A stretch of DNA of 64,000 nucleotides from Octopus sinensis (Eukaryota): the NCBI RefSeq assembly GCF_006345805.1, contig NW_021831864.1, positions 1 to 64,000 on the forward strand, given 5' to 3'. Numbering within the stretch: position 1 is the stretch's first letter; every line of letters begins with the position of its first letter. Below are positions 1,894 through 47,266 of the stretch, in pieces. The translations under genes and the position numbers were made by a program. The notes beneath the pieces were generated by a model, which saw only the letters and a list, made by a program, of their open reading frames with translations, had not been told where the DNA came from and ran no database searches.

Positions 1894-1935
1894 TTTCAGT
1901 ACCGGTTTCAGTCATTGAGACTTTTTCAACTGTAA
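1894..1935 (-). ncRNA. Minimal type I hammerhead ribozyme motif, U3-A8 core variant
   Basis: Minus strand reads ttacag-TTGAAAA-AGTC-tcaat-GACT-GAAA-CCGG-T-A-ctgaaa: stem I 5 of 6 pairs, stem II 4 bp, palindromic stem III ACCGGT, GUA cleavage triplet. Confidence 0.6.
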
Positions 1936-2094
1936 GTATGGAAAACAATTAAATTTTGGAAAAATTAAATGAAAAGTTTTTTGAAAGAATTTTTGCATAG
2001 TATTCAAATACAAGGGACATTTTCCTTGTTTCTGTCTGTCTCTGTCTCTCTTGTTTACTCTTGTGGGTTCGAGGTCGTTGTGAATTCATGGCAG

Positions 2095-2212
2095 GGAAGA
2101 AGAAGAAGAAGAAGAAGAAGAAGAAGAAGAAGAAGAAGAAGAAGAAGAAGAAGAAGAAGATGGAGAAGAAGAAGAAAGAGGATGAGGAGGAAGAGGAAGA
2201 GAAGGAGAAGAA
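2095..2212. repeat. (GAA)n microsatellite
   Basis: Direct reading; pure for about 65 bp, then degenerate. Confidence 0.95.
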
Positions 2213-2219
2213 TGAAGGA

Positions 2220-2580
2220 GTGCCGTGATTGTAGTAGGATGTTAAATGGTCAAGTGCCCTGAAAGTGACTTGTTGTGGTTGGTAGTAGTGATTGAATTCT
2301 TGAGACATCTCTTTTGAATGTATTGTTTATAAAATTTGCGTTGGTGTTATTCTAACCAGCAACAGTGGTAAAGTTAGGAAGGAGGTGGCGGAGGGGAAGA
2401 CGAAGAAGAAGAAGGAGAAAGGGAAGGGAGAATAAGAAGGAATGTAGGTGGTATGATTGTAGTAGGATGTTAAATGGTAAAGTGACCTAAAAGTGACTCG
2501 TTATGGATTATAGCAGTGATTGGAACTGTTTTTTAATGAATTCCTGGGAATCTTAAATGTATCATTTTTAATATTTGCGT
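2220..2580. repeat. Diverged local tandem duplication (two ~120 bp copies separated by a GA-rich block)
   Basis: TGATTGTAGTAGGATGTTAAATGGT...AAAGTGACT...GTGATTG...ATTTGCGT occurs at about 2220-2340 and 2448-2580. Confidence 0.75.
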
Positions 2581-2716
2581 GTGATGAGGACAAATATCCG
2601 TCAAATGTAAATAATATATATGTACACACACACATACACACACACACACACACACACATAGTAGAAATGTGTTACAAAAAGAAAATATAAAATATAAAAT
2701 ACACGTGGAAATGTAA

Positions 2717-2889
2717 GGGGAAAATAAGAAAAATCAACGAAAATGCACATTGTAAATAAAAAAAGAAAAGGCTTTTTATGAAAGGTAACGACAGATATAT
2801 ACATGTATATATCTGTCGTTACCTTTCATAAAAAGCCTTTTCTTTTTTATTTACAATGTGCATTTTCGTTGATTTTTCTTATTTTCCCC
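2717..2889. repeat. Near-perfect spacerless palindrome with ~87 bp arms
   Basis: Centred on ACA|TGT at 2803/2804. The arms are reverse complements apart from one A-run indel, which explains the mirror ORFs 2601-2804(-) and 2803-2985(+). Confidence 0.95.
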
Positions 2890-2952
2890 CTATATATATA
2901 TAGATCGTTAGCCACTACACACATTTTTTCTCTCCTTGTTTTTTCTGTCTCC

Positions 2953-2988
2953 CTTTCAGTAGAAGAGCGTAAGCTCGAAACGTAAAAG
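2953..2988 (+). ncRNA. Degenerate minimal hammerhead motif in a ~190 bp TA-flanked element (about 2900-3085)
   Basis: cttt-CAGTAGA-A-GAGC-gtaa-GCTC-GAAA-CG-T-A-aaag: stems I and II and palindromic stem III (ACGT) are present, but the core deviates from CUGANGA at two positions. Confidence 0.5.
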
Positions 2989-43757: not shown

Positions 43758-44046
43758 GATATGTCACAGATGGAGGCCGTGTGTTTGTGTTGATTGACAC
43801 CCCATCACATTCGTTATATGTGTATGTATTCTGTATGTATGTATGTGTGTTGATGTCACGGAAGCTATGCTTTTTCTTTTTTTCAAGAAATAGACAAAAA
43901 TAGTGTTTACTCCTTTTCATTAATAATGTCACAAATATTGTACTGTCGAAGCTAAGTATGAAAATAAATATGCAAGAAAAAAAAAGATTAAGATAAAATA
44001 TACTATTTCTGAGATATTTCGAGTACCAACAAACATCCATAGAATT

Positions 44047-44424
44047 TTAGTATTATTATGATGGCATACGCTGCAAACCACATCGTTGGTAACTTATAAG
44101 CCAATGCGATGGGTCAAAGCCAATACACATTTCAATTTGCATAAATCTTTTAATCCACTACTTCTTTGCAGATTATGTTCTTCGTGTAAGTTATCGCTCT
44201 TCTCTTCCCTTCTTTGTCAGTGTTGATAGCTTTAAGTCACGCATCGGATAATTTGCAAGCCCTTGAGAATGCAACATGTTGCTGAGCATGGCCGAATACA
44301 GGTTCAGGCAAGAACAGCCCCCACTCGATCAAATGTCTGCCCTTGTGATTTGTGGATAGCCACTGCATAAGACAGGCAAAGGGGAAATTGGTTTCTTTCG
44401 GAAGTGAATGGCAAGTTTGGGATG
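44047..44424 (-). mobile_element. Helitron 3' remnant with PIF1-like helicase C-terminus
   Basis: Manual translation QFPLCLSYAVAIHKSQGQTFDRVG/LFLPEPVFGHAQQHVAFSRA...YTKNIICKEV* (44150-44424, one frameshift and one internal stop) matches SF1 helicase motifs V-VI. A degenerate 3' terminus lies near 44047. Confidence 0.85.
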
Positions 44425-45548
44425 TGTTAAGTAATAGGTGATATTAAAAAAATTTAGTTCAATTCACAAAAAAATTATTTTTCTCCATCCACTCACCGTC
44501 GCCACCTCCACCACCAGCGAGCACCAACAACAGCAGCCGTCCAAGAATTTGGACCTGGAGATTTCTATTTCCAGCGACCTCGAGGGCCACCTCCCAATAG
44601 TGTCGAGCGTCAACGAAGAGCCCTCGACTACAACAAGATGACCAAAGATTTTTTTTCTAAGGTCTGGGATCTCCCGCCTTAAGCCCTAGACCATCACCTA
44701 ATCACCCTTAACCGTCTTGTTGCTTAACAACAACAACAACCAGAAACAGTAGCAGCACCACTTTCTCTCTCTCTCTCTCCCGCTGAGCCTTTCTTTAACT
44801 GTGTTCTAAGCTAAATATGTGACTGAAAACGTTGACAACCGATGTTTTTATTCATAAAAGATTCATTTGTCCAGTGGCTTAAATCCGTCAAGGTGAATTA
44901 CTCTTATGACAATGTGTATCAGTTATTTCCCCTGAATTGCAATACCTGCGATGATGAACTGTCAATGAGGCGGAGGTTACGGAAAACTGAAATAAGATGG
45001 TCAAAGAGGATTAATGATTTCTAATTTAGGAATAAGGCCAGCAATTATGCGTGTATTTATCCAATACAATTGAATAAATAGACATACTTGAATGTTTACT
45101 GGCTGATGTCTGTCAATTGTATATCCTCTCCGTTTTCTTATTTGCTGTATAAATCATGGGTAAATCACTTTTTTACCTCCGCCCATATATAATACTCAAT
45201 TGCAAGTGCAATAACTAGCACTTGGCTATGAATAATTGGGTACTCTACAAGCAGTATATTGGATAGGTACTATCCCTTAGTTGGTTTGTCAACTTCTAAT
45301 AGCTCACGAAGACATTATTATAGTATGTAAGATCTGTTGAAGATTATTGTTAATACAATAATATTGTTGTTACTGATAAGCATAGACGTGTTTATATGTT
45401 CTAATGTATTTATATACGTATATGACGTATGGTATATCCACTGGAATATATTGTTTAATTGTGTTCATTAATGTATTTTGCGCATGTGAATACTATATAT
45501 GCTTTGCTTATGTATGTATATTTGTATTTGTATATATATATATATATA

Positions 45549-46360
45549 TCATCATCATCGTTTAACGTCCGTTTTCCGCGCTAGCACGGGTTGGACGGTT
45601 CGACCGGGGTCTGGGAAGCCAGGGACTGCACCAGGCTCCAGTCTGATCTGGCAGAGTTTCTACAGCTGGATGCCCTTCCTAACGCCAACCACTCCGCGAG
45701 TGTAGTGGGTGCTTTTTACGTGCCACCTGCACAGGTGCCAGGGGGGTCCGGCATCGGCCACAATCGGTTGGAGCTTTTAACGTGCCACCGGCACGGAAGC
45801 CAGCTAAGGCGGCGCTGGCAACGGCCACGTTCGGATGGTGCTTTTTATGTGCCACCGGCACAGAAGCCAGTCGGGGTGGCGCTGGCATCGGCCACGTTTG
45901 GATGGTGCTTTTTATGTGCCACTGGCACAGGAGCCAGTCGGGGCGGCGCTGGCATCGGCCACGTTCGGATGGTGCTTTTTATGTGCCACCGGCACAGAAG
46001 CCGGTCGGGGCGTCGCTGGCATCGGCCACGTTCGGATGGTGCTTTTTATGTGCCACCGGCACAGAAGCCAGTCGGGGCAGCGCTGGCATCGACCACGTTC
46101 AGATGGTGCTTTTTATGTGCCACCGGCACAGGAGCCAGTAGGGGCGGCGCTGGCTGGCGTCAGCCACGTTCAGATGGTGCTTTTTATGTGCCACTGGCAC
46201 AGAAGCCAGTCGGGGCGGCGCTGGCATCAGCCACATTCGGATGGTGCTTTTTATGTGCCAGCGGCACAGGTATCACAACTACTATTTCCATTGATATTTA
46301 TATTTATTTCGATGTTCATGTTCATGTACTTGACTCAACAGGTCTCCTCAAGCACAGCGA
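45549..46360 (-). mobile_element. Family C retroposon with internal 67-bp GC-rich minisatellite
   Basis: Unit starts at 45824, 45891, 45958, 46025, 46092, 46163 and 46230; CAT repeats of the tail lie at the left end. Confidence 0.9.
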
Positions 46361-46576
46361 GACGTTCCGGGTTCCAGGGTAATTATATATATATATATAT
46401 ATATATATATATATATATATATATGTAAGTAACAACAATTAAGATTCAAGTGAATTCCAATGAGTTCAAATGAATGCGGTACTTAACTTAGATGCACCAG
46501 AAATCTATATGGTATTAACCATAAAATAATGTGGGGTGATTATAAACAAGAAAAAAGCAACAAGACTGGATTAGTT

Positions 46577-46668
46577 GTTCAGTACAATTGTTTCATACGA
46601 AGAACAGCTTTATTAAAAGCTGCAAATATTGCAGCAAATACAAGTGTCCTGTATTCATCAGCCAAAAC
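46577..46668 (-). ncRNA. Type I hammerhead ribozyme motif with fully canonical core
   Basis: Minus strand reads gttttgg-CTGATGA-ATAC-(52 nt structured insert)-GTAT-GAAA-CAATTG-T-A-ctgaac: palindromic stem III ACAATTGT, GUA triplet, stem I with G-U pairs. It lies in a TA-flanked ~540 bp element (46425-46968). Confidence 0.7.
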
Positions 46669-47133
46669 ACATATGAGTTTTCCAAACATCCTAGGGGTGA
46701 GGCTACACTCATGAAGTATCGAAGAGAGTTCAATAAAAAGCAAAGTTAGATTGTAAGCAGACTTCACAAGTTCTCTAAAGATGCACAGTTTTATAAAAGG
46801 TTTTTAGTTTCACAGAAAAGGTAAATCCATCCATAATAATGCAGGTGTAATTTCCGGAGATATTAGGAGATATTTCATACTCAGAGACGATGAATTTATC
46901 CATAATAATGTAGATGTAATTTCCTGATATATGAGAAGATGCTGATCACACTTCTGTTCATTTCACATACATATATGTAAGGATGTATGTATATGTATAT
47001 ATATATGTATGTATGTATATGTATATATGTATATTTTGATATTTGTTTATTGTTTATTTTAATATATTAAGTAATATGTGTATCATGTTTAGTATATTAA
47101 TATTAATATTAATATTTTTAAAGTTCATTATAA

Positions 47134-47266
47134 CCTCTGACGAGGCCTATGGTTTTTTAATATATAAGTATTATATTTTTTAAATGCCTACAACTTTAGT
47201 ATGTTGAAATCTATAGGCAATGAAAATTAGATTCACTTTTGACCATAGGTAAAAAGAGCTGTAAGA
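47134..47266 (+). ncRNA. Degenerate hammerhead motif with long stem II
   Basis: cct-CTGACGA-GGCCTATGGT...ACCATAGGT-aAAAA-GAGCTG-T-A-aga: G12 is lost and stem III AGAGCTGT is one change from the palindrome ACAGCTGT. It lies in a TA-flanked element at about 47030-47640. Confidence 0.5.

What the first reader, a model, noticed from the sequence alone, without database searches (positions are those of the whole stretch)
1894..47266. Six sequence-unrelated minimal hammerhead ribozyme motifs in short TA-associated non-coding elements
Seen in sequence: six motifs (1894-1935 -, 2953-2988 +, 3681-3741 -, 7013-7135 -, 46577-46668 -, 47134-47266 +) share one architecture. It runs short stem I, CUGANGA-like core, variable stem II, GAAA, a self-complementary or nearly self-complementary stem III (ACCGGT, ACGT, ACTCGGAGT, ACGGCCGT, ACAATTGT, AGAGCTGT) and a GUH triplet. 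Their stems share essentially no primary sequence. Each lies in a 0.2-0.8 kb non-coding island bordered by a TA run on at least one side. Established: Penelope-like elements and retrozymes carry minimal type I hammerheads whose palindromic stem III is thought to fold as a dimer. Inference: this genome hosts a diverse, probably unannotated population of TA-microsatellite-associated ribozyme-bearing solo pLTRs or retrozyme-like elements.
Basis: partly seen in the sequence, partly recalled or inferred. Interest (0 to 1): 0.8.

Follow-up and report, generated by a model that had tools for sequence, protein, structure and literature searches.

The report
Octopus Penelope ribozymes, one altered core
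The six motifs are the hammerhead-shaped RNA tags at the tail ends of broken Penelope-type jumping genes that litter this octopus genome, a known arrangement, but one family with over 13,000 copies has swapped a core letter thought nearly essential and likely still works as a slow self-cutting RNA.

Summary
All six motifs are real, and a seventh was missed (55625-55677, minus). Each is one copy of a dispersed repeat family. All seven families trace, on the same strand, to a Penelope-like element (PLE) with reverse transcriptase and C-terminal GIY-YIG endonuclease: five Hydra-clade, two Neptune-like. The islands are 5'-truncated PLE ends inserted into (TA)n, not a separate non-coding class. Retrozyme-like tandems are rare (4 of 207 loci, plus one 4-unit array). 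Minimal type I hammerheads in PLE pLTRs, the U3-A8 core of motif 1 and an octopus Hydra-clade hammerhead are already published; this scan also noted a U3-A8 PLE hammerhead in another genome. Three window copies (motifs 2, 4, 6) are decayed. The one unusual result is motif 2's family: 13,570 exact genome matches, of which only 136 have the canonical A6 (same level as a control mutation, 101). U6 is fixed across subfamilies while only the two freely variable hammerhead positions (N7, H17) vary. I found no report of a U6 family, but one key paper was unreadable. Cleavage is untested.

The parts
1791..2583 (-). 5'-truncated 3' end of a Neptune-like PLE (family M1)
   Evidence: 88.7% to L040 over 1791-2583; L040 carries the EN end just upstream; L223 is hammerhead-ORF-hammerhead
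1894..1935 (-). Motif 1: minimal type I hammerhead with U3-A8 core (UUGAAAA), GUA site, H17 at 1900
   Evidence: core shared by 32 of 36 parsed family copies
2900..3078 (+). Solo pLTR-sized 3' end of a Neptune-like PLE (family M2)
   Evidence: 93-96% family copies; full element L409 with RT and EN on the same strand
2953..2988 (+). Motif 2: minimal hammerhead of the U6 family; this copy also has a private U4A change; H17 at 2984
3582..3790 (-). 3' end of a Hydra-clade PLE (family M3) with a short inverted duplicate at 3748-3790
3681..3741 (-). Motif 3: hammerhead with intact CUGAAGA core, GUU site, H17 at 3686
6842..7694 (-). 3' end of a Hydra-clade PLE (family M4), 6842-7618, with an inverted 3' tail piece at 7619-7694 on the + strand
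7013..7135 (-). Motif 4: hammerhead, family core CUGAAGA, this copy A9C; H17 at 7016
   Evidence: core CTGAAGA in 22 of 29 parsed copies
46425..46967 (-). 3' end of a young Hydra-clade PLE (family M5)
   Evidence: 94% to full element L220; family copies 96-98% identical
46577..46668 (-). Motif 5: hammerhead with intact CUGAUGA core, GUA site, H17 at 46583
47022..47650 (+). 3' end of a Hydra-clade PLE (family M6, related to M4)
47134..47266 (+). Motif 6: decayed copy (G12A, stem III broken) of a family hammerhead CUGACGA...GAAACAGCUGUA; H17 at 47263
55502..55956 (-). Unlisted seventh island: 3' end of a Hydra-clade PLE (family M7) with an internal deletion and an endonuclease remnant at 55690-55956
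   Evidence: tblastn 74% identity, E 2e-39
55625..55677 (-).
45073..45299 (+). Tail-only fragment of an M4-type element (no hammerhead)
   Evidence: 81.9% to L130

Best explanation
The motifs are minimal type I hammerheads in the 3' pseudo-LTRs of seven Penelope-like retrotransposon families, left as 5'-truncated copies in (TA)n, and in full-length transcripts they likely pair as dimers through the palindromic stem III and cut slowly, probably with protein help. Shown: family membership, same-strand linkage to RT + GIY-YIG ORFs, fixed 3' ends at TA runs, variable 5' truncation, inverted 5' duplicates with a fixed breakpoint. Inferred: the PLE protein nicks AT-rich DNA and starts reverse transcription at fixed sites a short way past the hammerhead, usually stopping early, so the hammerhead rides along in almost every copy. 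Inferred: two hammerheads of one pLTR-ORF-pLTR transcript form the extended helix III; the lone copies in this window have no same-strand partner and are likely inert. Cleavage is likely not required for insertion, since junction-bearing copies keep the site intact. The M2 family likely remains a slow ribozyme under selection despite U6.
For: Each island is a high-copy repeat (592-3035 first-look candidates). (TA)4 within 600 nt 3' in 176 of 184 loci, at family-specific distances, vs 36% of random positions. Inverted second hammerhead in 44 cases among 207 loci; breakpoints cluster about 25-47 nt past the motif segment. Linkage: M1 L223; M5 L217, L220; M7 L216; M3 downstream of its EN in 14 of 19 EN-selected loci, 2 of them partial; M6 in L247, L341, L342; M4 in L405; M2 in L409, L407, L408, L410, L411. 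Clade motifs match Craig 2021 definitions. Two-sided stem changes between homologs found by BLAST: M1 AGUC/GACU vs GGUC/GACC, M5 AUAC/GUAU vs GUAC/GUAC, M4 vs M6 stem III CGGCCG vs CAGCUG, M2 vs an A6 sister CUUU/AAAG vs GUUU/AAAC. Predicted dimers pair through stem III for motifs 1, 3, 4, 7. Cervera 2014 and Frangieh 2024 report dimer-dependent, low or protein-assisted activity.
Against: No cleavage data for any of these sequences. Cofolding did not give the stem III dimer for motifs 2, 5 or 6, and the ACGU self-duplex of M2 is only -1.7 kcal/mol. Of 20 non-array M2 loci at the pLTR-body junction, 19 keep an intact hammerhead and only L409 starts near (+2) the cut site, so genomes give no sign of cleaved templates. 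M6 stem I is only 2 Watson-Crick pairs in most copies and M4 has A.A at 10.1/11.1. M6 linkage is seen in only 3 of 19 EN-selected loci on the same strand and M4 in one locus. The mismatched control core C3-A8 gave 4 hits vs 0-1 in shuffles, so some descriptor hits are decayed or spurious. Pfam hits to the ORF pieces were below curated cut-offs; PLE identity rests on motifs, homolog Pfam architecture and Atlas hits.
Confidence: 0.88

Rival explanations
1. The islands are non-autonomous non-LTR retrozymes that spread as tandem arrays through small circular RNAs.
For: One 4-unit head-to-tail array of about 510 bp with a hammerhead in every unit (L423); short M2 tandems in L086, L087, L090, L384; many M2 copies share a 5' end about 60 nt upstream of the motif.
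Against: Same-strand second hammerhead in only 4 of 207 loci, all M2; variable 5' truncation running into EN and RT coding sequence; hammerheads are of the minimal PLE type, not the canonical retrozyme type described in PMC7229834.
Confidence: 0.05
2. The M2 motif is a catalytically dead hammerhead kept for another job, such as a binding or folding signal for the PLE protein near the reverse-transcription start.
For: A6 changes give low activity (A6C kobs < 0.1/min, Perreault 2011 passages); stems and the GUAG loop are invariant within M2, so there is no covariation; junction copies are uncleaved; hammerhead mutants did not affect PLE insertion in vitro.
Against: Variation is concentrated at N7 (all four bases) and H17 (A 37, U 19, C 2, G 0 of 58), exactly the positions a working hammerhead leaves free, and these states sort with subfamilies in a tree built from flanks only.
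Confidence: 0.3
3. The motifs are chance matches in AT-rich repeats.
For: Motifs 1, 2, 4 and 6 are not above background from the window alone.
Against: Family-wide core conservation, 13 vs 0-2 strict hits in 770 kb, fixed place in PLE pLTRs, two-sided stem changes.
Confidence: 0.01
4. M2's free position 7 is a codon wobble site (GTN) in a reading frame, not a ribozyme signature.
For: One frame reads the core as TCT GTN GAA, with N7 third in a Val codon (translation).
Against: Other third positions in that frame do not vary, and the commonest H17 state makes a stop codon; the motif lies about 0.7-1.1 kb past the EN.
Confidence: 0.02

Closest known systems
[quoted passage not shown]
   Same: Type I, short stem I, palindromic or absent helix III, mostly single copies from truncated PLEs, opposite-strand pairs, extra nucleotide after A9 (M2), U3-A8 core with the same UUGAAAA in Schistosoma mansoni (M1).
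   Different: No octopus entry in the searched supplement (file 1 not searchable). All rows seen have A6; M2 has U6. Hydra-type motifs here have longer stem III and stem II and mostly lack G10.1-C11.1.
Hydra-clade PLEs, incl. Hydra-1_Obim, Craig et al. 2021 (PMC8557442; passages and supplement tables S1-S2 read)
   Same: RWK and DKT motifs, CxCX5C linker, EN without the internal cysteine pair, (TA)n insertion, hammerhead near the 3' end with a 7-9 nt palindromic stem III (M3-M7).
   Different: One octopus family was described; five are in this window alone, with 3' UTRs up to about 2.7 kb and stem II inserts over 100 nt. The published octopus motif is a different sequence.
Neptune/Nematis PLEs (definitions in PMC8557442)
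   Same: CX2-5CxxC linker, CxxC between GIY and YIG, DKG motif (M1, M2).
   Different: Neptune vs Nematis not resolved (no reference tree); M2 hammerhead has U6.
PAc Poseidon element of Anolis, Frangieh et al. 2024 (PMC11167929; parts 1-2 of 4 read)
   Same: AT-rich targets, fixed internal RT starts giving a tail, hammerhead read through uncleaved in the template.
   Different: Different clade; tails here (TA point minus inversion point) are about 60-120 nt in M3, M5, M7 rather than 30-40.
Non-LTR retrozymes (PMC7229834 passages; bioRxiv 10.64898/2026.07.22.740005 part 1 and passages)
   Same: Type I hammerheads; one PLE-derived 4-unit array here fits the proposed PLE origin.
   Different: Window copies are solo and belong to coding elements.
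A6C natural hammerhead variant, Perreault et al. 2011 (PMC3088659; passages)
   Same: Natural change at position 6.
   Different: A single phage sequence with C6, vs a U6 family of at least 13,400 copies.

Membership tests
EN+ Penelope-like elements | Single ORF with RT and C-terminal GIY-YIG endonuclease linked to the motif | tested here: met
   Same-strand linkage for all seven families in other copies; weakest for M4 (one locus) and M6 (three). Not within the six window islands themselves.
EN+ Penelope-like elements | Pseudo-LTRs: hammerhead-bearing repeat at both ends, direct or inverted | tested here: met
   L223 direct; L217, L220, L216, L225, L226 inverted; M2 pLTR-body junctions
EN+ Penelope-like elements | Fixed 3' end, variable 5' truncation, tail | tested here: met
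EN+ Penelope-like elements | RT groups with PLE/telomerase RTs in a tree | not tested
   No reference set available; no PDB sequence hit; homologs carry RVT_1, PF26215 and sometimes GIY-YIG
Hydra clade (M3-M7) | CxCX5C linker | tested here: met
   M3, M4, M5, M6, M7
Hydra clade (M3-M7) | EN lacks CCHH cysteine pair between GIY and YIG | tested here: met
   M3, M5, M7; M6 EN; M4 EN 56% identical to M6 EN
Hydra clade (M3-M7) | RWK and DKT motifs | tested here: inconclusive
   Both present in M5; the other families' copies held are truncated before that region
Hydra clade (M3-M7) | (TA)n insertion | tested here: met
Neptune/Nematis (M1, M2) | CX2-5CxxC linker plus CxxC inside GIY-YIG | tested here: met
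   L223, L409, L408
Minimal type I hammerhead | CUGANGA and GAAA cores, NUH site, stems I-III | tested here: met
   Families M3-M7 canonical; M1 with the published U3-A8 swap
Minimal type I hammerhead | Invariant A6 (family M2) | tested here: not met
   136 of 13,570 exact matches have A6; control U4A gives 101. M2 is therefore a core variant, not a canonical member.
Minimal type I hammerhead | Self-cleavage as a dimer | not testable with these tools
   Folding only
Non-LTR retrozyme | Head-to-tail arrays with a hammerhead in each unit | tested here: not met
   4 of 207 loci; none in the window; one 4-unit array elsewhere (L423)
Non-LTR retrozyme | No coding capacity in the family | tested here: not met
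Non-LTR retrozyme | Abundant small circular RNA | not testable with these tools
   Only assembled contigs of guessed-RNA runs were available

The most novel reading that the evidence does not exclude
The most abundant hammerhead seen in this octopus genome is a working natural variant with U in place of the near-invariant A6, kept through at least four subfamily expansions, invisible to CUGANGA descriptors and Rfam, and rescued by dimer geometry or by the PLE protein; such hidden core variants would mean animal ribozyme counts are substantially low.
Probability: 0.35. Interest if true: 0.62.

Novelty: new variant of a known kind. Interest (0 to 1): 0.4.

Why it matters
Six of the seven motifs add members to a known class and show that Hydra-clade PLEs are far more diverse in octopus than the one family described. 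The U6 family gives a clean natural test of an open question, what PLE hammerheads are for: it has an A6 sister family with the same stem II, thousands of copies, and subfamilies that vary only at the free positions. If it cleaves, the core consensus needs widening and descriptor surveys miss whole families; if it does not, the fold is being kept for a non-catalytic role.

Tried and rejected
Rfam: no hammerhead model hit. Expression: no RNA holder listed; contigs of four guessed-RNA runs laid on the M5 element showed no joint at the cut site and cannot show ends, so nothing is concluded. Idea that full-length insertions start at the cleavage site: suggested by L409 (+2) and L349 (0), rejected for M2 by 19 of 19 further junction loci; the same test for M1 and M5 was left open (hit lists only). 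Idea that inverted M4 pairs 5.3 kb apart flank a full element: no shared interior or PLE ORF. My early label of M2 as Poseidon-type and M3-M7 as Neptune was dropped after the motif check. A U6 pattern scan of metagenome contigs gave 2 matches, neither with a convincing stem I. Literature searches for a U6 variant and for cephalopod hammerheads found none beyond Craig 2021; Lunse et al. 2017 (about 150,000 PLE hammerhead variants, recalled) was not held and could list U6; supplement file 1 of PMC4209133 and bioRxiv supplements were not seen.
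Full report
Setting. The window is contig C8335 of a 2.72 Gb animal genome; a host exon at 59818-59997 matches octopus PARP14-like proteins at 85-100%. About 10.2-40.5 kb is satellite.

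Observation. All six motifs are present as described. A descriptor for minimal type I hammerheads finds motifs 3 and 5 and a seventh at 55625-55677 (minus): 3 hits against a shuffled mean of 0.025. Allowing two core mismatches recovers motifs 1 and 2 among 27 hits against 18 +/- 3.6, and never recovers 4 or 6. So four of the six could not be told from chance in the window alone. Rfam has no hammerhead hit.

Families. Each island is a dispersed repeat, with 592-3035 first-look candidates of which 40 were scored per search; these top hits are biased towards the query. Family cores: M1 UUGAAAA (32 of 36 parsed), M3 CUGAAGA (39 of 48), M4 CUGAAGA (22 of 29), M5 CUGAUGA (21 of 24), M6 CUGACGA (16 of 20), M7 CUGAAGA (25 of 32); unparsed copies were 3, 22, 14, 3, 11 and 12. 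The window copies of motifs 2, 4 and 6 carry private decay. M4 and M6 are related. Homologs found by BLAST show two-sided stem changes in M1, M5, M4/M6 and M2 vs its sister; the M7 change could be CpG decay.

Anatomy. With paralogs of the window removed, 176 of 184 loci have a (TA)4 run within 600 nt 3' of the motif, at family-specific distances, against 36% of random positions. 5' ends vary from tens of bases to over 1.5 kb. Inverted duplicates of the 3' end are common and break at a fixed point (M5 +29, M1 +46, M3 about +30, M7 about +25). This matches the PLE insertion pattern described by Craig et al. 2021 (passages).

Link to coding elements. M1: L223 reads hammerhead, ORF with RT and EN, hammerhead. 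M5: L217 and L220 read inverted hammerhead, RT, EN, 1 kb UTR, hammerhead. M7: L216 likewise; the window copy itself keeps an EN remnant. M3: searching with the EN alone, 14 of 19 other loci have M3 0.7-1.5 kb downstream on the same strand. M6: 1 of 19 within the 1.5 kb flank, 2 more at about 5 kb across nested insertions, 2 inverted. M4: L405 has RT and EN 2.7 kb upstream, continuous with L404 over the UTR, and L406 has the EN inverted. M2: L409 is nearly full length; L407, L408, L410, L411 carry the EN. By Craig's diagnostics, M3-M7 are Hydra clade and M1, M2 Neptune-like. Pfam support was weak; homologs of the M2 ORF carry RVT_1, PF26215 and in some GIY-YIG.

Population. In 77 evenly spaced 10 kb stretches (769,800 bases) the strict descriptor gave 13 C3-G8 hits (shuffles 0-2), 4 U3-A8 hits (0-2), and for control cores 4 C3-A8 (0-1) and 1 U3-G8 (0-1). 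Nine of the 13 belong to none of the window families; 7 of those 9 have homologs in other loci held. Scaled up (my arithmetic) this is roughly 40,000 intact canonical motifs, range about 25,000-80,000. Three in the window is not a significant cluster at that density.

Retrozyme test. A second same-strand hammerhead occurs in 4 of 207 loci, all M2; an inverted one occurs 44 times. One 4-unit, about 510 bp array with a hammerhead per unit exists (L423). Retrozyme-like arrays are thus a rare by-product.

The U6 family. A 29-nt pattern with positions 6 and 7 free has 13,570 exact matches (reversed control 0). With A at 6 there are 136; the same T-to-A change at U4 gives 101, so A6 copies look like decay. 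In the first 100 matches listed, position 6 is U 99, C 1; position 7 is U 50, A 22, C 16, G 12 (my count). H17 is A 37, U 19, C 2, G 0 in 58 gap-free copies (6 with indels left out). In 16 copies not picked by an M2 query, the minor-letter fraction is 0.08 across the motif, 0.38 at N7 and H17, and 0.34 in ungapped flanks; BLAST seeding on the motif biases this. A tree of 78 copies from flanks only sorts N7 and H17 by subfamily and scatters A6 copies, with rough support. Two copies of an A6 sister family share the GAGC/GCUC-type stem and tail. All 23 motifs at pLTR-body junctions have U6. Stems do not vary inside M2, so there is no covariation within it.

Mechanism. Shown: the above anatomy. 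From papers: PLE min-hammerheads show no activity as monomers and low activity as dimers (PMC4209133); the Anolis PLE hammerhead cleaves only with protein, is not needed for insertion in vitro, and RT starts at fixed internal sites on AT-rich targets (PMC11167929). Consistent with that, 19 of 20 non-array M2 junction loci keep the site intact. Predicted dimers use stem III for motifs 1, 3, 4, 7 but not 2, 5, 6. I infer slow, dimer- and probably protein-dependent processing of tandem transcripts, with lone truncated copies inert. A6 changes are reported to give low activity (PMC3088659), so M2 is either slow or kept for shape.

Novelty. PLE hammerheads, U3-A8, the extra base after A9 and an octopus Hydra-clade hammerhead are in print; PLEs are annotated in octopus (passages of PMC13282606 and PMC8967140, neither mentioning ribozymes). 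All motif rows seen in those two supplements have A6. Searches found no U6 family; Lunse 2017 was not readable. Verdict: known kind, with one probably unreported core variant at very high copy number.

Noticed in passing
   Followed up: yes
L423 (G000:C5:121297900-121299900): Four head-to-tail units of about 510 bp, each with the U6 hammerhead, derived from the M2 pLTR and 5' body: a retrozyme-like array born from a PLE.
   Followed up: partly
L087 and L015 (flanks): A6 sister family of M2 with the same stem II arms and related tail; natural control for the U6 variant.
   Followed up: partly
window 59818-61783 (+): Exons of a PARP14-like gene; the surrounding region is duplicated on several contigs (C1, C10487, C11932, C9336, C9482).
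   Followed up: partly
window 10278-40484: Long (TTA)n tracts alternating with a 12/49-bp AAAATTTTCGG-type satellite with strong hairpin potential.
   Followed up: no
window 2717-2889: Near-perfect 170-bp inverted repeat directly 5' of the M2 island.
   Followed up: no
window 45708-46269, 38723-38999, 63090-63640: 61-67 bp GC-rich tandem units inside a common interspersed repeat.
   Followed up: no
L177:2187-2975 (+): RT fragment resembling Naiad PLEs (recalled motif likeness; weak RVT_1 hit) next to an M6 copy.
   Followed up: no
L326 (+, near 175): Well-formed hammerhead-like motif with a mismatched C3-A8 core; 3 homologs in other loci, core state in them not checked.
   Followed up: no
M3, M5, M7 families: Distance between the inversion breakpoint and the TA end is about 60-120 nt, longer than the 30-40 nt tail described for PLEs.
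   Followed up: partly
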